This document shows positions 16,107-21,897 of a stretch of DNA of 64,000 bases, piece by piece. Position numbers and translations under genes: made by a program. Numbering within the stretch: position 1 is the stretch's first letter; every line of letters starts with the position of its first letter. Below the pieces are notes generated by a model. It ran no database searches, was not told the origin of the DNA, and saw nothing but the letters and a program-made list of their open reading frames with translations. Source of the stretch: Escherichia phage vB-Eco-KMB37; sequence record OR525700; one strand, given 5' to 3'.

Positions 16107-17840
16107 ATGAATATTTTTGCACCTTTTGCTACTGATTGGTATAAACCTGGTCACAAGCAGATGTACAACCAAAATACAAAACTCATTTTCTCTAATTTAA
16201 CTCCTCGTAATGATAAAAACTTTGCACACTATGCAGATCGTGAAGCACGTGGTGTAATTGTTTTAGGTATTCGTCGAGCAGTTACTGATGCTCTTGTAAC
16301 TATGTGGGATAGCTTCTTTAAAATGTCTCGTAGTGCAGCAGTAAATAAATTTTATCGTATGTCTAAAAATGCATTAGGTGCTTCTGCTCCTTCTGCTGAA
16401 TGTTGGGGAGAATTGCACGATTTAGGTTATCTTCCGCTGGAAGTTCGATCTCTGCCAGAAGGTGTTTTGTGTCCTATTGGTGTTCCTGTGTTTACTGTGC
16501 ATAATACTTTAGAAAAATTCTTTTGGTTAACTAACTATGTGGAAACACTATTGTCAGATGAAACTTGGAAGACAATGACTAATGCTACAGCAGCTTTTCA
16601 GTATAAGCGTATTGCTATGGCATATGCGATGGCAACGTGTGATAATATTGATCATGTTAACTTCCAGTGTCATGATTTTAGCCTACGTGGTTTAAGTAAT
16701 ATCGAAGATGGTTATAAGAGTGGTATCGCTCATTTGGCATCTTTCACAGGAACAGATAACATTCTGGCTATTGAGACTGTGCATGATTATTATGGTATTG
16801 ATTATGATCAGTTTGTTGCAGGTTCTATTCCGGCAACAGAACATTCAGTAGCAACGACTAACATTGGAGCTATTGTTGAAGATCTGAAGAAACATTTCCC
16901 ACATCTTAAAGATGATGTTGATGGGCTTCGTTATGTAGCAGAGAAAGAGTTTCTTCGCCGCTATATTGAAGAAATTGTTCCAGAAGGTTTTTGTTCATAT
17001 GTAGCAGATTCTTATGACTACTGGGCTGTCTTGACTCGCATTCTGGTCGAGTTGAAAGATTCCATTATGTCACGAAATGGTCGTCTTGTTATTCGTCCAG
17101 ATTCAGGAGATCCGGTTAAAGTTGTTGCAGGATACAATGTTGAATCTTTTGATAACTATGAAGACCTTTTAAATAATGGTATTGCTACAGCCACTGAAGT
17201 AGTTCATTTGGCTGATGTTAATAAGTATTACAATGTTCTTCAGGATTGCAGTGTTGCTGATTGTATTGATGAAACTTATGAGATTCCTTATTGTGAAGCA
17301 GTAGGTTCTATTCAAATCCTTTGGGAAGTGTTTGGTGGTACTATCAACCGAAAAGGCTACAAGGTTCTTGATCAGCACATCGGTATGATTTATGGTGATT
17401 CTATTACTGTTGAACGAGAACACGAAATCTTACGCCGACTGAAGAAGAAAGGTTTTGCAGCTTCCAATATTGTATTTGGTGTTGGTAGTTATACTTATCA
17501 GTTCAATACACGAGATACTTTTGGTTTTGCTGTTAAAGCAACAGGTAGTATCATCGGTGAACACGAAATTTTGGTAAGTAAGGAGCCTAAAACTGATCCT
17601 GGTAAACGTTCTGCAAAAGGTTTTATTAAGGTTGTTAAGGATACAAACGGTAAAATTTCTCTCGTGGATAATCTTTCTTTTAAAGATATTCAAGATGAAG
17701 ACAATGAGTTAAAAGTTATCTTCAGGGATGGTACGGTTATTACACCACAAGTAGAAGGACGTGATGAAACATTTACGGATATCCGCAATCGTGTTGATGT
17801 AGAGGTTCTTCGTACTATGGGAACCATCCAGGTTGACTAA
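16107..17840 (+). CDS. Nicotinamide phosphoribosyltransferase family protein (NadV/NAMPT-like; possibly Namat)
   Basis: 577 aa; N-terminal DWYKPGHKQMY and overall NAMPT-like architecture; adjacent to the Prs-like gene. Confidence 0.8.
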   Translation: MNIFAPFATDWYKPGHKQMYNQNTKLIFSNLTPRNDKNFAHYADREARGVIVLGIRRAVTDALVTMWDSFFKMSRSAAVNKFYRMSKNALGASAPSAECWGELHDLGYLPLEVRSLPEGVLCPIGVPVFTVHNTLEKFFWLTNYVETLLSDETWKTMTNATAAFQYKRIAMAYAMATCDNIDHVNFQCHDFSLRGLSNIEDGYKSGIAHLASFTGTDNILAIETVHDYYGIDYDQFVAGSIPATEHSVATTNIGAIVEDLKKHFPHLKDDVDGLRYVAEKEFLRRYIEEIVPEGFCSYVADSYDYWAVLTRILVELKDSIMSRNGRLVIRPDSGDPVKVVAGYNVESFDNYEDLLNNGIATATEVVHLADVNKYYNVLQDCSVADCIDETYEIPYCEAVGSIQILWEVFGGTINRKGYKVLDQHIGMIYGDSITVEREHEILRRLKKKGFAASNIVFGVGSYTYQFNTRDTFGFAVKATGSIIGEHEILVSKEPKTDPGKRSAKGFIKVVKDTNGKISLVDNLSFKDIQDEDNELKVIFRDGTVITPQVEGRDETFTDIRNRVDVEVLRTMGTIQVD

Positions 17841-18146: not shown

Positions 18147-18257
18147 ATGTCTACAGAAATTATTTTTGGCTTATCTGTTTTTATTGCTATTGTATCTTTT
18201 GTATGCGGTTATACACTAGGTTACAGATCAAGAAAAAATATTGTAAAAACTAGTTGA
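18147..18257 (+). CDS. Small hydrophobic peptide (36 aa)
   Basis: AAGGAAACA RBS then ATG; single TM-like segment GLSVFIAIVSFVCGY; below the ORF-track length cutoff. Confidence 0.3.
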   Translation: MSTEIIFGLSVFIAIVSFVCGYTLGYRSRKNIVKTS

Positions 18258-18283
18258 CAACATAGCTAGTTATTTGCTAAGAT
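18254..18283 (+). promoter_or_regulatory. Sigma70-like promoter
   Basis: TTGACA-N18-TAAGAT. Confidence 0.5.
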
Positions 18284-18313
18284 AAGCACAAGTTAAACAA
18301 AAAGGAGAAAACT

Positions 18314-18580
18314 ATGACAGAAAAGACTTATGGTAAAGAATTGATTGAGAAGCACGTATTGATTGATAATAAAGGTGGAGCAATCTTTATTTTTGAACCT
18401 GAATCAGTTCTTACTGAAAACGAAAATGGTAGCGTTAGCCTTAAAACAGAAAGTTTGGTAATTGACTTCCTTGCTCTTCTGGATGAAATGGGGCTTCCTC
18501 ACGAAGAAGAAGCAGCTATTGCTTTGATTGCAGTTCTTCTGGAGAAACGCGAAGCTGGTGAAATGACCCAGTATGCTTAA
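18314..18580 (+). CDS. Hypothetical protein
   Basis: 88-aa ORF with AAGGAG RBS. Confidence 0.45.
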   Translation: MTEKTYGKELIEKHVLIDNKGGAIFIFEPESVLTENENGSVSLKTESLVIDFLALLDEMGLPHEEEAAIALIAVLLEKREAGEMTQYA

Positions 18581-18587
18581 TATTCAA

Positions 18588-18663
18588 GGTTCCATAGCTC
18601 ACTGACGAAAGCGCACACCTCATAAGTGTCGAGGGCAGGGATTGTAACCCTGGGGAACCACCA
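18588..18663 (+). tRNA. tRNA-Met (anticodon CAT)
   Basis: 76 nt incl. CCA; acceptor GGTTCCA/GGGAACC, anticodon loop CTCATAA; T-loop atypical (ATTGTAA). Confidence 0.6.
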
Positions 18664-18694
18664 TTTAAAAGGAGGTGCTATGCATCTCCTATAT

Positions 18695-18780
18695 GCAAGT
18701 GTGGTGGAATTGGTGATACACATTGTGCTTAAAACGCAACGCTTAAATGATTGAGGGTTCGAATCCCTCCACTTGCACCA
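18695..18780 (+). tRNA. tRNA-Leu (anticodon TAA), type II
   Basis: Acceptor GCAAGTG/CACTTGC, loop CTTAAAA, long variable arm, T-arm GAGGG-TTCGAAT-CCCTC, CCA encoded. Confidence 0.7.
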
Positions 18781-18782
18781 AC

Positions 18783-18890
18783 GCCTAGTAGGGTATTTGG
18801 TAATTCCGAGGCCATCAAAGCCTGAAAAATATGTTAGACCGTTTTGTCTAACTAAATACGAAATATGGTTCGATTCCATAACTAGGCTCC
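18783..18890 (+). tRNA. Atypical tRNA-like element (about 107 nt)
   Basis: Perfect 7-bp acceptor pairing GCCTAGT/ACTAGGC and T-arm TATGG-TTCGATT-CCATA, but about 32 nt too long, with an extra 7-bp hairpin GTTAGAC/GTCTAAC; anticodon not resolved. Confidence 0.3.
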
Positions 18891-18923
18891 CGATTTAAAT
18901 AGTAATTTTTTAATAAAAATATC

Positions 18924-18952
18924 TTGACATTTACTTAGTTTTTTGTTATAGT
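18924..18952 (+). promoter_or_regulatory. Sigma70-like promoter
   Basis: TTGACA-N17-TATAGT. Confidence 0.55.
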
Positions 18953-18963
18953 CATTATGAAAA

Positions 18964-19045
18964 CGGGGTGTATCTCACCTGACTTCTAATCAGGCGTTAA
19001 CCGAGTAATTGGAGTATGCAGGTTCGAATCCTGTCACCCCGGCCA
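18964..19045 (+). tRNA. Atypical tRNA-like element (anticodon-like loop TCT, Arg-like)
   Basis: Perfect acceptor CGGGGTG/CACCCCG, stem-loop CCTGA-CTTCTAA-TCAGG, T-arm GCAGG-TTCGAAT-CCTGT, CCA; no canonical D-arm and a 24-nt insert before the T-arm. Confidence 0.35.
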
Positions 19046-19063
19046 AAAAGTTTTAAAAACTAC

Positions 19064-19092
19064 TTGACAAGCAAGATAGTTTTATGTTAGAT
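19064..19092 (+). promoter_or_regulatory. Sigma70-like promoter
   Basis: TTGACA-N17-TTAGAT. Confidence 0.5.
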
Positions 19093-19108
19093 TTAAAGTA
19101 TGGTAACA

Positions 19109-19198
19109 GGAAGGTAGGGCGCAGCGGTGCGCAACCAGGTTTGAACCCTGGCCCATTGTAGCGATACGGTGATGGTTCGACTCCATTATCTTCCTCCA
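19109..19198 (+). tRNA. tRNA-Ser (anticodon TGA), type II
   Basis: Acceptor GGAAGGT/ATCTTCC, anticodon arm CCAGG-TTTGAAC-CCTGG, long variable arm, CCA. Confidence 0.65.
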
Positions 19199-19216
19199 AA
19201 TTCGCTTAGGAGCTTT

Positions 19217-19369
19217 ATGAATTATAAAACTATTGGACAGGTTGTTACCGGAGTTAAGATTGTAGATAATAAAGTTGTTTATGAGTATTCTAATCTTCAA
19301 CAATCTGAAGATGGTAAAAATATTCGTATGGTAAAAGCAGAACAAAAAGATTCCGGTTGTTTTGAATAA
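19217..19369 (+). CDS. Hypothetical small protein (50 aa)
   Basis: AGGAG RBS then ATG at 19217; the longer track ORF would start inside the preceding tRNA. Confidence 0.35.
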   Translation: MNYKTIGQVVTGVKIVDNKVVYEYSNLQQSEDGKNIRMVKAEQKDSGCFE

Positions 19370-19377
19370 TTAATAAC

Positions 19378-19463
19378 GGTAGATTGGTGAAATGGTAGCC
19401 ACAACAGTTTGCTAAACTGTAGTCGGAAACGGCGTGTAGGTTCAAGTCCTACATCTACCGCCA
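19378..19463 (+). tRNA. tRNA-Ser (anticodon GCT), type II
   Basis: Acceptor GGTAGAT/ATCTACC, anticodon arm ACAGT-TTGCTAA-ACTGT, long variable arm, discriminator G, CCA. Confidence 0.7.
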
Positions 19464-19597
19464 AGTTATCTTTAATGTAGCTTGTAATCTTACTTTAATA
19501 GAGTAAATCTTCGGCAAGTGGCGGTAACCACTTTACCGATACCCTAATACTTCATAGTCAAGTGCCGCAAACACTGGCTATTTTAAAGATAATTTAT

Positions 19598-19673
19598 ACA
19601 TCGTTAGCTTAGTTGGTAGAGCAAGGGGCTTTTAACTCCAAGGTCGAAGGTTCGAATCCTTCACGATGTACCA
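19598..19673 (+). tRNA. tRNA-Lys (anticodon TTT)
   Basis: Acceptor ACATCGT/ACGATGT, loop CTTTTAA, T-arm GAAGG-TTCGAAT-CCTTC, CCA. Confidence 0.7.
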
Positions 19674-19678
19674 AACAC

Positions 19679-19765
19679 GTAGGTATCGCATAGCGGCAAT
19701 TGCTGGAGACTGTAAATCTCCTGCCCTTCGGGGCTTCGTTGGTTCGAGTCCAACTACCTGCACCA
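19679..19765 (+). tRNA. tRNA-Tyr (anticodon GTA), type II
   Basis: Anticodon arm GGAGA-CTGTAAA-TCTCC, long variable arm, T-arm GTTGG-TTCGAGT-CCAAC, CCA. Confidence 0.7.
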
Positions 19766-19772
19766 AATTAAA

Positions 19773-19857
19773 GATGGATTGGCCTAGTGGTTGGGCGACG
19801 GACTGTTAATCCGTGAACGAAAGTTCTAGCAAGGTTCAAATCCTTGATCCATCGCCA
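19773..19857 (+). tRNA. Type II (long-variable-arm) tRNA with Asn anticodon GTT
   Basis: Perfect acceptor GATGGAT/ATCCATC, 3-bp D-stem, anticodon arm ACGGA-CTGTTAA-TCCGT, 15-nt variable arm with GAAC-GAAA-GTTC hairpin, discriminator G, CCA. Confidence 0.6.
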
Positions 19858-19864
19858 GAATCAT

Positions 19865-19941
19865 GGACTTGTAGAGTTAAGGTAAACCCTCAGTCGCCAA
19901 GAGGCTTCTGGAATTGCAGGTATCGAATCCTGCCGAGTCCA
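19865..19941 (+). tRNA. Atypical tRNA-like element (anticodon unresolved)
   Basis: Acceptor GGACTTG/CGAGTCC pairs well; T-loop has 8 nt (TATCGAAT); no clean 5-bp/7-nt anticodon arm; no encoded CCA. Confidence 0.3.
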
Positions 19942-19947
19942 ATTATT

Positions 19948-20022
19948 GCTCCTATCGTATAACGGCTATTACGGTTGCCTTGTAAGCAACTTATCAGGGT
20001 TCGAGTCCTTGTGGGAGCACCA
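19948..20022 (+). tRNA. tRNA-Thr (anticodon TGT)
   Basis: Acceptor GCTCCTA/TGGGAGC, anticodon arm GTTGC-CTTGTAA-GCAAC, CCA. Confidence 0.7.
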
Positions 20023-20045
20023 ATTTTAACTCTAAAGGAGTGTAT

Positions 20046-20369
20046 GTGACAGAAAAAGAGTTAGAGAAATATTTTAATATCAATGTTTTCGATGGTTTTG
20101 ATGATATTGAAGATGTTGAAAGATATTATGAAGTAGAGTTAGATAAGGATAACATTGTAATTCTTTCTGCCACTTATGATTGTGCATATTATGAAGGTGA
20201 ATCTCACGTTTATTTTTATGATATGAAAACATCTTTGTTTTATGAAGTACACGCATATCATTGTTCTTGTTATGGTTTAGAAGGTCAGTGGGAACCTGAA
20301 GAAATAGGTGATTTGGACTTTACTATTGCATATCTAAACAGACGTGGTGCATCTACTATTTTAAAATAA
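20046..20369 (+). CDS. Hypothetical protein
   Basis: AAGGAG RBS; likely GTG start at 20046 (track start 20040 lies inside the RBS). Confidence 0.45.
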   Translation: MTEKELEKYFNINVFDGFDDIEDVERYYEVELDKDNIVILSATYDCAYYEGESHVYFYDMKTSLFYEVHAYHCSCYGLEGQWEPEEIGDLDFTIAYLNRRGASTILK

Positions 20370-20383
20370 ATATCAAAAGCCTC

Positions 20384-20413
20384 TTGACAAAGGGGCTAAT
20401 AATATGTTAGAGT
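20384..20413 (+). promoter_or_regulatory. Sigma70-like promoter
   Basis: TTGACA-N17-TAGAGT-like. Confidence 0.5.
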
Positions 20414-20424
20414 AATATTGTTAA

Positions 20425-20499
20425 GCGGGTATAGTGTTAATGGTAGCATATGAGGTTTCCACCCTCCAGGTGCAGGTTCAAGTCCTGTTACTCGCTCCA
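20425..20499 (+). tRNA. tRNA-Gly (anticodon TCC)
   Basis: Acceptor GCGGGTA/TACTCGC, loop TTTCCAC, T-arm GCAGG-TTCAAGT-CCTGT, CCA. Confidence 0.7.
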
Positions 20500-20517
20500 A
20501 GATTATTTAAATGGAAT

Positions 20518-20570
20518 CGCTAGAGAAAATTTCTCTTTTCGCTCATGGTTTTCTCCTTCAAACTCTAGCG
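20518..20570 (+). other. Structured spacer between tRNA-Gly and tRNA-Gln (nested inverted repeats)
   Basis: Outer 8-bp inverted repeat CGCTAGAG...CTCTAGCG enclosing hairpin GAGAAA/TTTCTC. Confidence 0.3.
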
Positions 20571-20598
20571 GTTCTTTTTAAGTGATTTTTAGTTTTAT

Positions 20599-20673
20599 TG
20601 GAGATTAGCCTAGTGGGAAGGCAACGGCCTTTGAAGTCGTGATGACTAGGTTCGATTCCTAGATCTCCAGCCA
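20599..20673 (+). tRNA. tRNA-Gln (anticodon TTG)
   Basis: Acceptor TGGAGAT/ATCTCCA, anticodon arm ACGGC-CTTTGAA-GTCGT, T-arm CTAGG-TTCGATT-CCTAG, CCA. Confidence 0.75.
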
Positions 20674-20680
20674 ATATTTA

Positions 20681-20756
20681 CAGTGCGTAGCGCAGTTGGT
20701 AGCGTGGGAGCTTTGGATGCTTCGGGTCGCAGGTTCGAGTCCTGCCGCACTGACCA
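20681..20756 (+). tRNA. tRNA-Pro (anticodon TGG)
   Basis: Acceptor CAGTGCG/CGCACTG, anticodon arm GGAGC-TTTGGAT-GCTTC, T-arm GCAGG-TTCGAGT-CCTGC, CCA. Confidence 0.75.
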
Positions 20757-20761
20757 AATTT

Positions 20762-20836
20762 GCAGAGATAGCTGAGACGGATTAGTGCTACCCTGAAAAG
20801 GTAGAAAGGATGGATCGTTACCATCTCTCTGCACCA
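20762..20836 (+). tRNA. tRNA-Phe (anticodon GAA)
   Basis: Acceptor GCAGAGA/TCTCTGC, anticodon arm CTACC-CTGAAAA-GGTAG, CCA. Confidence 0.7.
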
Positions 20837-20913
20837 AATAACACCATCCAAGGAGTAGACTTGGTTAACTGTCAATAGCACATTGAGGCTTCTTACAGTG
20901 GTGTACTTATTAT

Positions 20914-20998
20914 GGCTAAGTGGTGGAATGGTATACACGATACGCTTAGAACGTATTGCCCCAGTGGATTGTGAGTTCGAGTCTCACCTTAGCTACCA
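20914..20998 (+). tRNA. tRNA-Leu (anticodon TAG), type II
   Basis: Anticodon arm ATACG-CTTAGAA-CGTAT, long variable arm, T-arm GTGAG-TTCGAGT-CTCAC, CCA. Confidence 0.7.
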
Positions 20999-21085
20999 TA
21001 TCTAAGAGATATCATAGGGTTTGCAACGGATATCTACCGTCCTATTAAGGATACCACGCCAAGACGGGTTATAAAGGGTTAGCCA

Positions 21086-21161
21086 TTGATAGTGTGAAGC
21101 TGGCGTTTCGAGTGCTTTCATAAGGCATTGCGAGAAGAGTTCGATTCTCTTACTATCAACC
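21086..21161 (+). tRNA. tRNA with CAT anticodon (Met or Ile2)
   Basis: Acceptor TGATAGT/ACTATCA, loop TTCATAA with wobble-containing stem, T-arm AAGAG-TTCGATT-CTCTT, CCA. Confidence 0.55.
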
Positions 21162-21177
21162 AAATTACTACAGATTG

Positions 21178-21256
21178 CGCGGGATAGAGGAGTCTGGTCG
21201 TCCTCGCCAGTTTCATATGCTGGAGATCATCGGTTCGAATCCGATTTCCGCCTCCA
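21178..21256 (+). tRNA. tRNA with CAT anticodon (Met or Ile2), boundaries approximate
   Basis: D-stem AGGA/TCCT, loop TTCATAT, T-arm ATCGG-TTCGAAT-CCGAT; acceptor pairing imperfect. Confidence 0.5.
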
Positions 21257-21332
21257 ATAAATACCTCCCTTCTGGTGTAATGATTAAATTACATTGACAC
21301 TTCAAGGAACTCATAGCCGGGTAGATTTAAAA

Positions 21333-21397
21333 GAGTATGGTACTCAATATGGCTCCAAACCATAGATCAAGGGGTTCGATTCCTCACCTTGCTGCCA
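21333..21397 (+). tRNA. Possible tRNA-Trp (anticodon CCA), 5' boundary uncertain
   Basis: Anticodon arm TATGG-CTCCAAA-CCATA and T-loop TTCGATT plus CCA are clear; no acceptable 5' acceptor strand found with a normal D-arm. Confidence 0.3.
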
Positions 21398-21401
21398 ATA
21401 T

Positions 21402-21477
21402 TGTGGTATCGTACAGATGGTTAGTACACTCGACCGATAATCGAGAAACAACGGTTCGACTCCGTTTACCACGACCA
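21402..21477 (+). tRNA. tRNA-Ile (anticodon GAT)
   Basis: Acceptor TGTGGTA/TACCACG, D-stem GTAC/GTAC, anticodon arm CTCGA-CCGATAA-TCGAG, CCA. Confidence 0.7.
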
Positions 21478-21588
21478 AACTCCGTGCCAGCGGTGTCTTC
21501 GAAGAACAAGCCTAGTTCCTTCTGAGATGGAGGGGTGCGACTCCTTAACGCACATACCACTACTACTAAATACTTATCAGGAGATATT

Positions 21589-21858
21589 ATGTATACTTTA
21601 AAAGTAATTCGCAAGTTTCCTCAAGAAGAGGAAGTAAGAATTTATAACACTGTACCATTCGTAGTAAATGAAGAAGAATTCTTTTATTGCTTAGAAGATG
21701 AAGTAATTATTCAATATCATTGGGAAGGTTATGACAGACAAGATGGTGTTGTAGCTTCTGTGCTTGCTGGTGATAGAGTGTTATTCATTCACAAAACTGA
21801 ATCAGCATATTTAATGAATGATAAAGGACAAACTGTTAAAGTAATTAACAGACCATAA
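21589..21858 (+). CDS. Hypothetical protein
   Basis: CAGGAG RBS then ATG at 21589 (track ORF extended upstream into the tRNA region); followed by a terminator. Confidence 0.45.
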   Translation: MYTLKVIRKFPQEEEVRIYNTVPFVVNEEEFFYCLEDEVIIQYHWEGYDRQDGVVASVLAGDRVLFIHKTESAYLMNDKGQTVKVINRP

Positions 21859-21870
21859 AGAATTTTATAA

Positions 21871-21897
21871 AAGCCTCCTTTTTGGAGGTTTTTTATT
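21871..21897 (+). terminator. Rho-independent terminator
   Basis: CCTCC-TTTTT-GGAGG hairpin followed by TTTTTTATT. Confidence 0.6.

What the first reader, a model, noticed from the sequence alone, without database searches (positions are those of the whole stretch)
18588..21477. Dense array of about 20 tRNA and tRNA-like genes driven by repeated consensus sigma70 promoters
Seventeen canonical tRNAs can be folded by eye (two Leu, two Ser, three CAT-anticodon species, and one each of Lys, Tyr, Thr, Gly, Gln, Pro, Phe, Ile and the GTT-anticodon type II tRNA), plus four aberrant or uncertain elements. Phage tRNA sets are now thought to replace host tRNAs lost to anticodon nucleases or to host shutoff. 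Three spacers (19464-19597, 20837-20913, 20999-21085) are tRNA-sized but did not fold into tRNAs by eye.
Basis: partly seen in the sequence, partly recalled or inferred. Interest (0 to 1): 0.6.

Follow-up and report, generated by a model that had tools for sequence, protein, structure and literature searches.

The report
Coliphage tRNA array with odd members
This is the already-annotated transfer-RNA gene cluster of a phi92-like E. coli phage, ordinary as a whole, but it holds several conserved odd RNAs (an asparagine tRNA with an extra arm, an arginine-type tRNA without a D arm, and an unannotated 134-base structured RNA) that I could not find described in the papers I could search.

Summary
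The window is a Justusliebigvirus (phi92-like coliphage, 98% identical to EC.P2). ARAGORN finds 15 tRNAs at 18695-21477. Rfam adds a non-canonical tRNA(UCU) at 18964. Relaxed ARAGORN adds a CAT tRNA at 18588, giving 17, with every hand-read anticodon correct. Three or four weaker tRNA-like elements bring the count to about 20. Four TTGACA/extended -10 promoters lie on the same strand (0.9 expected).

The array is annotated in phi92, Paula and outra, so as a system it is already known. The tRNAs match codons the AT-rich phage over-uses (AGA 5x, ACA 4.6x, CTA, ATA, CCA, GGA). tRNA-Lys has a fully recoded anticodon stem, and tRNA-Tyr a recoded variable arm. Those are the sites where PARIS and Septu/retron-Eco7 cut host tRNAs.

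Three sub-features are less ordinary:
- The GTT tRNA is a class II tRNA-Asn with a covarying, Tyr-type variable arm. It occurs in many phage lineages and in none of 5,426 E. coli genomes.
- The tRNA(UCU) lacks a D arm and is conserved in at least five phage lineages.
- The "spacer" at 19464-19597 is a structured RNA with six compensatory pairs. It occurs in 180 phage genomes and carried no annotation in any of the 40 listed.

The parts
18254..18283 (+). Promoter-like site P0 (TTGACA-18-TAAGAT, TG-extended), upstream of a small ORF and the first tRNAs
18314..18580 (+). Small ORF (88 aa, phi92 gp110-like), function unknown
   Evidence: PHROG 15056, unknown function; annotated in relatives
18588..18663 (+). 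CAT-anticodon tRNA with a non-canonical T loop (AUUGUAA) and a D loop lacking GG
   Evidence: Found only with relaxed ARAGORN. Annotated tRNA-Met in Paula and outra, 'hypothetical tRNA' in phi92.
18695..18780 (+). tRNA-Leu(UAA)
18783..18890 (+). tRNA-like element A: acceptor-like stem, T arm and an inserted hairpin, no CCA. Present only in some close relatives.
   Evidence: (z = -2.1)
18924..18952 (+). Promoter-like site P1 (TTGACA-17-TATAGT, 11/12, TG-extended)
18964..19045 (+). Non-canonical tRNA(UCU, Arg-type). The D arm is replaced by an invariant UAUCUCA, with an invariant 24-nt insert between the anticodon and T stems. Ends in G-CCA.
   Evidence: Rfam 38.6 bits with the D arm deleted. 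7-sequence alignment from several phage lineages: 19 pairs, 7 compensatory. Labelled 'tRNA-OTHER' in a few records.
19064..19093 (+). Promoter-like site P2 (TTGACA-18-TAGATT, TG-extended)
19109..19198 (+). tRNA-Ser(UGA)
   Evidence: Rfam matches only the tRNA-Sec model, below threshold. Flagged pseudo in phi92.
19217..19369 (+). Small ORF (50 aa, gp111-like), function unknown
19378..19463 (+). tRNA-Ser(GCU)
19464..19597 (+). Element B: conserved structured RNA of about 117-134 nt (up to 179 nt with an inserted hairpin). A closing helix of 11+5 bp encloses three hairpins. It runs from the CCA of tRNA-Ser to the 5' end of tRNA-Lys. Not a tRNA.
   Evidence: RNAfold z = -3.86. Two 10-sequence alignments, A1 and A3: 36-38 pairs, 6 compensatory, 98.9% paired against 39-51% when slid. 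Present in 180 phage records, with no annotation in any of the 40 listed. No Rfam hit.
19598..19673 (+). tRNA-Lys(UUU): host-like body, anticodon stem completely recoded
19679..19765 (+). tRNA-Tyr(GUA) with a variable arm unlike the host's
19773..19857 (+). Class II tRNA-Asn(GUU): 4-bp variable-arm stem GAAC/GUUC with a GAAA loop, G73, and an anticodon arm that differs from the host's at one base
19864..19942 (+). tRNA-like element C: acceptor stem and T arm covary with phi92, no usable anticodon loop, no CCA
   Evidence: (z = -2.85)
19948..20022 (+). tRNA-Thr(UGU)
20046..20369 (+). Small ORF (107 aa, gp112-like), function unknown
20384..20413 (+). Promoter-like site P3 (TTGACA-18-TAGAGT, TG-extended)
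20425..20499 (+). tRNA-Gly(UCC)
20500..20598 (+). Hairpin D: about 23 bp, covarying stem with a conserved apex, followed by a U-rich tract. Candidate RNase III or terminator-type punctuation.
   Evidence: z = -4.13. Compensatory changes in L197 and phAPEC8. The apex is complementary to 18301-18318.
20599..20673 (+). tRNA-Gln(UUG)
20681..20756 (+). tRNA-Pro(UGG)
20762..20836 (+). tRNA-Phe(GAA) with an unusual T loop
   Evidence: Flagged pseudo in phi92.
20837..20913 (+). Spacer E: not a tRNA, no significant fold, conserved only in close relatives
20914..20998 (+). tRNA-Leu(UAG)
20999..21086 (+). Spacer F: not a tRNA, no significant fold, yet 91% identical in the diverged relative L197. Unexplained.
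21087..21162 (+). CAT-anticodon tRNA no. 2 (absent from phi92)
21178..21256 (+). CAT-anticodon tRNA no. 3: a 5' CGCGGG like initiator tRNA and a 1:72 mismatch, but no G-C run in the anticodon stem
   Evidence: Labelled 'tRNA-Pseudo-CAT' in phAPEC8.
21320..21397 (+). Trp(CCA)-like non-canonical tRNA: the D arm is replaced by a 5-bp/3-nt hairpin. Ends in G-CCA.
   Evidence: Relaxed ARAGORN. Rfam 22.9 bits. Two compensatory pairs against L197.
21402..21477 (+). tRNA-Ile(GAU)
21478..21565 (+). Element H: conserved in phAPEC8 (90%) and L197 (82%), with a T-arm-like hairpin. Function unknown.
21589..21858 (+). Small ORF (89 aa, gp114-like), function unknown
21869..21893 (+). Intrinsic-terminator-like hairpin (10 bp plus a T run) closing the last unit

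Best explanation
This is the tRNA gene cluster of a phi92-like (Justusliebigvirus) E. coli myophage.

Inferred expression: host RNA polymerase with sigma-70 starts at four near-consensus promoters and makes polycistronic transcripts. In these, tRNAs with genome-encoded CCA ends are separated by tRNA-like elements, a long hairpin and small ORFs. Host tRNA-processing enzymes (RNase P and 3' trimming) would then release 17 tRNAs plus by-product RNAs such as element B.

Likely functions: the tRNAs serve two purposes at once.
1. Most carry U34-type anticodons and top up the host pool for A/U-ending codons that this 38% GC phage uses 1.5-5 times more than E. coli (AGA, ACA, CUA, AUA, CCA, GGA, UCA, CAA, UUA).
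2. A Lys-Tyr-Asn block supplies versions of tRNAs that E. coli immune nucleases attack, altered at the sites those nucleases recognise: the anticodon stem in Lys and the variable arm in Tyr. The extra Tyr-type arm on tRNA-Asn is most likely another body-shape change that still allows charging by AsnRS, since the GUU anticodon and G73 are kept.

Shown: the gene content, structures, covariation, conservation, codon statistics and sequence differences from host tRNAs. Inferred: transcription, processing, charging and nuclease evasion.
For: - tRNA calls.
- Identity with annotated arrays of phi92, Paula and outra at 96-98%.
- Promoters. Terminator.
- Codon usage: 9 of the 16 distinct anticodons have a Watson-Crick cognate codon enriched at least 1.5x in the phage. 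The top two codons, AGA (5.0x) and ACA (4.6x), both have phage tRNAs.
- tRNA-Lys is 88% identical to E. coli tRNA-Lys, but all 5 anticodon-stem pairs differ. AriB cuts at 40/41 and a single stem swap gives resistance (PMC11464382).
- The tRNA-Tyr variable arm differs from the host's. Septu and retron-Eco7 cut the variable arm, and T5 tRNA-Tyr escapes through a distinct variable loop (PMC13096335; PMC11555353).
- tRNA-Asn: E. coli AsnRS identity rests on the anticodon plus G73 (PMC9976931), and both are present. The anticodon arm differs from the host's at one base. The variable arm covaries across 26 distinct stems.
Against: - Nothing here shows expression, processing, aminoacylation or protection.
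- Codon bias does not explain Tyr, Asn, Phe, Trp, Met or Ile-GAU.
- No nuclease is known that a variable arm on tRNA-Asn would defeat. A T5-like (SP15) phage tRNA-Asn did not rescue infection from PrrC170 (PMC11555353).
- Several members have non-standard T or D loops and are flagged pseudo or 'hypothetical' in deposited records, so some may be inactive.
- The anticodon arm of the phage tRNA-Asn is host-like, so anticodon-loop nucleases would still cut it.
Confidence: 0.65

Rival explanations
1. Codon supply only. The array exists solely to match the tRNA pool to the AT-rich codon usage of phage genes. The differences from host tRNAs are neutral drift or ancestry from another host.
For: There is strong enrichment of AGA, ACA, CTA, ATA, CCA and GGA, each with a matching phage tRNA. 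Most anticodons start with U.
Against: Lys (AAA 1.27x), Tyr, Asn, Phe, Trp, Met and Ile-GAU (ATC 0.6x) are not explained. In tRNA-Lys the changes are concentrated in the anticodon stem while the rest stays host-like. Drift would not do that.
Confidence: 0.2
2. Partly decayed, mobile tRNA cassette. The cluster is shuffled between phages by homing endonucleases and recombination. Many units (18588, 18783, 18964, 19864, 21320, 21478 and the spacers) are dead relics with no function of their own beyond, at most, acting as processing signals.
For: Units come and go between close relatives. phi92 lacks 18781-18895 and the CAT tRNA at 21087, and carries an rIII-like insert. HNH endonuclease genes are inserted in or next to the arrays of relatives. 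Element C is 97.6% identical to phAPEC8 but only about 81% to phi92. Elements C and H keep the acceptor and T arm but lack an anticodon loop or CCA.
Against: The odd units are not decaying freely. tRNA(UCU) has 7 compensatory pairs and invariant loops across at least five phage lineages. Element B has 6 compensatory pairs across three phage families. The Trp-like element has 2 compensatory pairs. Spacer F is 91% conserved where the flanking tRNAs are about 70%.
Confidence: 0.12
3. The class II tRNA(GUU) is charged with serine. SerRS recognises a long variable arm plus G73, so this tRNA would deliberately misread Asn codons as Ser.
For: G73 and a long variable arm are the elements SerRS is reported to use (PMC7609411). 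G73 also blocks LeuRS and TyrRS (PMC9976931).
Against: In the same viral arrays, tRNA-Ser variable stems are mostly 5-7 bp with 1 unpaired base on the 3' side. The Asn arm is 3-4 bp with 3-4 unpaired bases, which is the tRNA-Tyr geometry. The full AsnRS identity set is present. The tRNA is conserved in many lytic phages, whose own proteins would be damaged by mistranslation.
Confidence: 0.05

Closest known systems
Annotated tRNA cluster of phage phi92 (NC_023693) and other Justusliebigvirus genomes (Paula, outra, EC.P2)
   Same: Same locus, 96-98% identical, same gene order and same anticodons. tRNA-Asn is annotated at 85 nt.
   Different: The window carries units that phi92 lacks (18781-18895 and the CAT tRNA at 21087) and lacks phi92's rIII-like insert. 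No record among those I fetched or saw listed annotates element B, and only a few label 18964 ('tRNA-OTHER').
T4 tRNA cluster with stable RNAs species 1 and 2 (rnaC, rnaD)
   Same: A phage tRNA operon in which non-tRNA stable RNAs of about 120-140 nt sit directly beside tRNAs. Element B is placed the same way.
   Different: There is no sequence similarity to element B. rnaC carries a T arm and B does not. T4 has 8 tRNAs and no tRNA-Asn, Lys or Tyr.
T5 anti-defence tRNAs (tRNA-Lys against PARIS; tRNA-Tyr against retron-Eco7/Septu)
   Same: tRNA-Lys(UUU) is altered in the anticodon stem and tRNA-Tyr in the variable arm. T5-like phages also carry the class II tRNA-Asn and an element B homologue.
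   Different: Protection has been shown experimentally only for T5 and SP15. Nothing was tested for this phage, and the sequences differ.
Bacterial class II tRNAs (Leu, Ser, Tyr), especially tRNA-Tyr
   Same: The Asn variable arm has the tRNA-Tyr layout: 3-4 bp stem, tetraloop, about 3 unpaired bases on the 3' side.
   Different: Anticodon GUU and discriminator G73. Asn is not a class II isotype in textbook tRNA sets (PMC7609411). E. coli tRNA-Asn is a 76-nt class I tRNA.
D-armless mitochondrial tRNAs
   Same: tRNA(UCU) at 18964 has acceptor, anticodon and T arms but no D arm.
   Different: It has a long, invariant 24-nt insert in the variable position, a canonical T loop and an encoded CCA, and it is encoded by a phage rather than an organelle. 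The comparison rests on general knowledge, not on a test here.

Membership tests
tRNA (Rfam RF00005 / ARAGORN cloverleaf) | Cloverleaf scoring above the curated threshold | tested here: met
   14 matches at or above 29 bits and 15 ARAGORN genes at default settings; the union is 16. The CAT tRNA at 18588 is found only at relaxed settings.
Phage tRNA gene cluster | Many tRNA genes on one strand within a phage genome, conserved in related phages | tested here: met
   The window is 98% identical to phage EC.P2, and the arrays are annotated in phi92, Paula and outra.
Sigma-70 promoters | -35 and -10 hexamers at 16-18 nt spacing, beyond chance | tested here: met
   Four sites score at least 10/12 with perfect TTGACA and a TG-extended -10, against 0.9 expected.
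Sigma-70 promoters | Transcription actually starts there | not testable with these tools
   Needs 5'-end mapping of RNA from infected cells.
Class II tRNA | Variable region longer than 10 nt forming its own stem-loop | tested here: met
   19773-19857 has a 15-nt variable region, GAAC-GAAA-GUUC plus UAG. 26 distinct covarying stems were found in 56 unique homologues.
Class II tRNA | Isotype is Leu, Ser, Tyr (or Sec) | tested here: not met
   Anticodon GUU with G73 gives Asn identity. It is therefore a variant outside the textbook class II set.
AsnRS substrate (E. coli tRNA-Asn identity) | Anticodon G34 U35 U36 and discriminator G73 | tested here: met
   Both are present in the sequence. The identity rule comes from PMC9976931. 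Actual charging is not testable here.
SerRS substrate (tRNA-Ser identity) | Ser-type long variable arm (in these arrays a 5-7 bp stem with about 1 unpaired base on the 3' side) plus G73 | tested here: not met
   The Asn arm is 3-4 bp with 3-4 unpaired 3' bases. Ser arms in the same arrays are 5-7 bp with 1. G73 alone is shared.
Anti-defence phage tRNA (PARIS-resistant tRNA-Lys type) | tRNA-Lys(UUU) with changes in the anticodon stem around positions 40/41 | tested here: met
   All five stem pairs differ from E. coli while the loop and the rest of the body are conserved. The criterion comes from PMC11464382.
Anti-defence phage tRNA | Resistance to the nuclease and rescue of infection | not testable with these tools
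   Needs AriB or PtuAB cleavage assays and plaque assays.
T4 species 1/2 stable RNAs | Non-tRNA RNA lying between tRNAs of a phage tRNA operon | tested here: met
   Element B abuts the CCA of tRNA-Ser and the 5' end of tRNA-Lys. The T4 layout is shown.
T4 species 1/2 stable RNAs | Sequence or structure homology to rnaC or rnaD | tested here: not met
   No significant BLAST match, and only 41-50 identical columns in alignments of 175-189 columns. The folds differ.
Any curated RNA family for the spacers (for example Y RNA/YrlA or tmRNA) | Covariance-model match | tested here: not met
   No Rfam match within 19464-19597, 20837-20913 or 20999-21086, even at E up to 10. ARAGORN finds no tmRNA.

The most novel reading that the evidence does not exclude
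Three RNAs in this array are conserved, shape-altered or non-tRNA molecules that belong to the phage-host conflict over tRNAs. They are the class II tRNA-Asn with a Tyr-type arm, the D-armless tRNA(UCU) with an invariant 24-nt insert, and the 134-nt element B released between tRNAs. On this reading the first two keep decoding while no longer fitting host tRNA-cutting immune nucleases. Element B would be a stable small RNA, functionally comparable to the still-unexplained T4 species 1/2 RNAs, that acts as a decoy or regulator. I found none of the three described in the searchable literature, and element B carried no annotation in any of the 40 listed records out of the 180 that carry it.
Probability: 0.25. 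Interest if true: 0.7.

Novelty: already known. Interest (0 to 1): 0.4.

Why it matters
As a tRNA array the locus adds nothing new. It is the annotated phi92-type cluster and fits current ideas that phage tRNAs both match codon usage and replace tRNAs destroyed by host immunity.

It is useful in two ways:
- It is a clean natural example in which a phage tRNA-Lys and tRNA-Tyr are changed at the nuclease recognition sites mapped for PARIS and Septu/retron-Eco7.
- It points to three conserved RNAs that standard annotation misses or mislabels.

A class II tRNA-Asn present in roughly 15% of sampled viral tRNA-Asn genes would extend the textbook list of long-arm tRNAs. It would also give a testable handle on how tRNA body shape affects recognition by synthetases and by immune nucleases.

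Tried and rejected
- Rfam at E up to 10 gave nothing for the spacers.
- T4 rnaC and rnaD show no homology to element B.
- The first class II Asn pattern was too loose for cellular genomes. 119 of 120 genome-contig hits were chance matches, and the only real one is in an uncultured archaeon bin.
- The class II Asn has no match in 5,426 E. coli genomes.
- The small ORFs in the array match only PHROGs of unknown function, apart from one secondary hit of the gp112-like ORF to an integrase-labelled family (phrog_21421, E = 6e-15), which I did not pursue.
- A minus-strand mini-ORF (SD + ATG) in the apex of hairpin D was rejected, because relatives differ by frameshifts while the nucleotides stay conserved.
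- Spacers E and F have no significant fold, no tRNA model match and no promoter above threshold, so they remain unexplained.
- The TH18 homologue of element B (L382) could not be aligned and was left out.
- Seven literature searches for a class II, long-arm or otherwise non-canonical tRNA in phages found no description of these RNAs. This is absence in an open-access library, not proof of novelty.
- Isotype assignment of the three CAT tRNAs (Met, fMet or Ile2) was not resolved.

Full report
**What the window is.** The 3.5 kb around the finding is 98.4% identical to Escherichia phage EC.P2 and 96-98% identical to some fifty other Justusliebigvirus genomes, including phi92. The deposited records for Paula, outra and phi92 annotate 15-16 tRNAs at the homologous positions. 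These include an 85-nt 'tRNA-Asn', and at the first position a 'tRNA-Met' in Paula and outra or a 'hypothetical tRNA' in phi92. The locus is therefore an already-deposited, already-annotated phage tRNA cluster.

**Checking the observation.**
- ARAGORN at default settings gives 15 tRNAs, all on the + strand between 18695 and 21477.
- Rfam's tRNA model confirms 13 of them above threshold and adds 18964-19042 at 38.6 bits.
- Relaxed ARAGORN adds the third CAT tRNA at 18588-18663 and a Trp(cca)-like element at 21320-21397.
- Still looser settings give tRNA-like elements at 18783-18890 (with a 24-nt insert) and 19864-19942.

Four promoter-like sites with a perfect TTGACA, 17-18 nt spacing and a TG-extended -10 lie at 18254, 18924, 19064 and 20384. 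My own scan finds 4 sites scoring at least 10/12 on this strand in 4 kb against 0.9 expected, and 6 of 500 simulations reach 4. A strong terminator-like hairpin at 21869-21893 closes the region.

**What the tRNAs are for: codon supply.** The window is 38% GC. The codons most over-used by the phage are AGA (5.0x), ACA (4.6x), ACT, TCT, CTA (2.8x), CCT and ATA (2.3x), followed by CCA, GGA, TCA, CAA and TTA at 1.5-2x. Phage tRNAs with anticodons UCU, UGU, UAG, UGG, UCC, UGA, UUG and UAA match these directly. One of the three CAT tRNAs probably serves ATA. This supports the classical codon-supply role for roughly ten members. It does not explain Lys, Tyr, Asn, Phe, Trp, Met or Ile-GAU.

**What the tRNAs are for: replacing tRNAs that immune nucleases cut.**
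- *tRNA-Lys.* Aligned with E. coli tRNA-Lys(UUU), the phage tRNA-Lys is 88% identical. The D arm is nearly identical and the T loop and anticodon loop are identical, but all five anticodon-stem pairs differ. [quoted passage not shown] The T5 tRNA-Lys resists it through anticodon stem-loop changes, and a single stem-pair swap is enough for resistance (PMC11464382).
- *tRNA-Tyr.* The phage tRNA-Tyr keeps the host anticodon loop and most of the stem but has a different variable arm, GCCC-UUCG-GGGC against GUC-ACA-GAC in tyrU. Septu and retron-Eco7 cleave the variable arm of E. coli tRNA-Tyr, and T5 tRNA-Tyr is reported resistant because of its distinct variable loop (PMC13096335; PMC11555353).

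It has no experimental test here.

**The GTT tRNA.** 19773-19857 is a class II tRNA. Its 15-nt variable region forms a 4-bp stem (GAAC/GUUC) capped by GAAA, followed by three unpaired bases. Its anticodon arm differs from E. coli tRNA-Asn at one base. E. coli tRNA-Asn is a 76-nt class I tRNA present in 5,425 of 5,426 complete genomes. The phage tRNA keeps G73, which together with the anticodon is the reported AsnRS identity set (PMC9976931).

The same architecture occurs in several other phage groups:
- phAPEC8, where the stem is swapped to GUUC/GAAC.
- Seunavirus, with stem GAGU/ACUC.
- T4-like Klebsiella phages.
- T5-like phages.

A pattern scan of IMG/VR followed by ARAGORN gave about 55 class II tRNA-Asn among 120 loci, all inside viral tRNA arrays. 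The same pattern in 120 cellular-genome loci gave one, in an uncultured archaeon bin. Pooling the loci gave 56 unique sequences with 26 different variable stems, nearly all 3-4 bp.

A second scan that did not fix the loop sequence suggests that about 15% of viral tRNA-Asn matching the anticodon-arm pattern are long-armed (12 of the first 80 listed). Loops other than GAAA occur, including GAGA, GCAA and UUCG. There is no match in E. coli genomes.

In the same arrays, tRNA-Ser arms are mostly 5-7 bp with one unpaired 3' base. tRNA-Tyr arms are 3-4 bp with three, and the Asn arms are 3-4 bp with three or four. The arm is therefore Tyr-like, which argues against SerRS mischarging. A few Ile, Thr, Trp and Cys tRNAs in these arrays carry similar mini-arms, so Asn is the commonest case of a broader phage habit rather than unique.

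I found no paper describing this. A review of non-canonical tRNAs lists only Ser, Leu and Tyr as class II (PMC7609411).

**The tRNA(UCU) at 18964-19045.** It sits just downstream of the best promoter. Rfam aligns it with the D arm deleted. Full-length homologues occur in 240 phage records. Seven sequences were aligned, from Justusliebigvirus, two Felixounaviruses, the jumbo phage PBECO4, Roth50, a Mydovirus and a Vequintavirinae phage. They show 19 pairs in the acceptor, anticodon and T stems, 7 of them with compensatory changes. Three single-stranded parts are invariant:
- the 7-nt UAUCUCA that replaces the D arm;
- the anticodon loop CUUCUAA;
- a 24-nt insert before the T stem, which varies at only two positions.

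This is a selected RNA, not a decaying pseudogene. A few records call it 'tRNA-OTHER'. Whether ArgRS charges it is unknown.

**The spacer 19464-19597 (element B).** It folds well (z = -3.86) and is conserved in 180 phage records, 170 of them nearly full length. Nothing is annotated under the match in any of the 40 listed rows. These records include Justusliebigvirus, Phapecoctavirus, rV5-like Vequintavirus, Certrevirus and T5-like Tequintavirus.

Two ten-sequence alignments give the same consensus: a closing helix of 11+5 bp and three hairpins. There are 36-38 pairs, six with compensatory double changes, and one pair shows four different pair types. 98.9% of cells are paired, against 39-51% when partners are slid by 1-3 columns. 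No shuffle of 500 reaches the observed covariation score. Invariant G-U pairs place the structure on the tRNA-coding strand.

In this window and its Justusliebigvirus and Phapecoctavirus relatives, element B begins at the base after the CCA of the upstream tRNA and ends where the next tRNA begins. In PBES02 and HMD-P5 one flank is not a tRNA. Ordinary tRNA processing should therefore release it here.

The closest analogue is the pair of stable RNAs (species 1 and 2) annotated beside tRNA-Arg in the T4 cluster. There is no sequence or fold similarity to them, so this is an analogy and not membership. The function of element B is unknown.

**Other elements.**
- *Trp-like element, 21320-21397.* It has a canonical T loop, a CUCCAAA loop and a G-CCA end. 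A 5-bp/3-nt hairpin replaces the D arm, and two of its pairs covary with the relative L197.
- *Elements C (19864-19942) and H (21478-21565).* They keep acceptor and T-arm features, which covary with phi92 or phAPEC8, but have no usable anticodon loop or CCA. My reading is that they persist as processing punctuation. This is inferred.
- *Hairpin D, 20500-20598.* This is a hairpin of about 23 bp with many compensatory changes and a conserved apex. The apex is complementary in 15 of 18 bases to the ribosome-binding region of the first ORF of the locus, at 18301-18318 (0.05 chance matches expected).
- *Spacers E and F.* They have no significant fold. F is nevertheless 91% identical in L197, where the neighbouring tRNAs are about 70% identical. 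I cannot explain F.
- *Small ORFs.* The ORFs inside the array match only PHROG families of unknown function, apart from a secondary integrase-labelled hit for the gp112-like ORF that I did not pursue.

**Turnover of the array.** Units are gained and lost between close relatives. A diverged relative, L197, carries 23 tRNAs in the same order. Element C in this window is nearly identical to the phAPEC8 version rather than the phi92 version. HNH endonuclease genes sit in or beside homologous arrays.

**Verdict.** The most likely role is dual: codon supply plus nuclease-insensitive replacements. The interesting residue is the set of conserved non-standard RNAs inside it. I rate overall interest at 0.4. 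I give 0.25 probability to the more novel reading, that these RNAs are specific adaptations in the conflict over tRNAs.

Noticed in passing
window 19773-19857; L004-L008; about 55 IMG/VR loci (e.g. L130, L137, L165, L174, L183): A class II tRNA-Asn(GUU) with a covarying 3-4 bp, mostly GAAA-capped, Tyr-type variable arm is widespread in phage tRNA arrays. It is absent from 5,426 E. coli genomes, and I found no description of it in searchable papers.
   Followed up: yes
window 19464-19597: A 'spacer' that is a conserved 4-helix structured RNA with six compensatory pairs. It is present in 180 phage genomes across three families and unannotated in every record listed.
   Followed up: yes
window 18964-19045: A D-armless tRNA(UCU) with invariant single-stranded segments and 7 compensatory pairs. 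It is conserved in Felixounavirus, the jumbo phage PBECO4, Mydovirus and others, and sometimes labelled 'tRNA-OTHER'.
   Followed up: partly
window 21320-21397: A Trp(CCA)-like tRNA whose D arm is replaced by a 5-bp/3-nt hairpin. Two of its pairs covary with the relative L197.
   Followed up: partly
window 20500-20598 and 18301-18318: The conserved apex of a long covarying hairpin (CUCAUGGUUUUCUCCUUC) is complementary in 15 of 18 bases to the ribosome-binding site and start codon of the first ORF of the locus. This could be antisense control or a relic of a duplicated start region.
   Followed up: partly
window 20999-21086: This spacer has no predicted structure or tRNA features, yet it is 91% identical in a relative whose flanking tRNAs are only about 70% identical. 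Unexplained.
   Followed up: partly
window 19858-19947 vs L004 2890-2972: This tRNA-like element is 97.6% identical to the phAPEC8 (Phapecoctavirus) version but only about 81% identical, over half its length, to the phi92 version. That suggests recent exchange of array modules between genera.
   Followed up: partly
L197 (IMGVR_UViG_3300030441_000047); also L176, L194: Relatives and other viral arrays carry a tRNA with a CTA anticodon (called 'Pyl' by ARAGORN), which is a candidate amber suppressor. L197 has 23 tRNAs in the same order as this window.
   Followed up: no
viral loci L129-L359: Short Tyr-type variable arms also appear on a few Ile, Thr, Trp, Cys and Met tRNAs in viral arrays (for example Ile 7 of 62 and Thr 7 of 76 unique sequences are at least 80 nt long).
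   Followed up: partly
L105 (uncultured archaeon LFW-28, CABMCB010000068.1): This is the only class II tRNA-Asn found among 120 cellular-genome pattern hits. It is a lone tRNA in an archaeal bin. It could be native or a mis-binned virus.
   Followed up: no
window 16107-17840: A 577-aa nicotinamide phosphoribosyltransferase gene lies just upstream of the array, annotated as such in Paula, outra and Klebsiella phage 05F01. It is an NAD-salvage gene and possibly relevant to NAD-depleting defences.
   Followed up: no
relatives H10, H15, H19; L373 491-882; L375 498-845: HNH homing endonuclease genes are inserted within or immediately beside homologous tRNA arrays, twice directly after the tRNA(UCU). 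This fits endonuclease-driven shuffling of tRNA modules.
   Followed up: no
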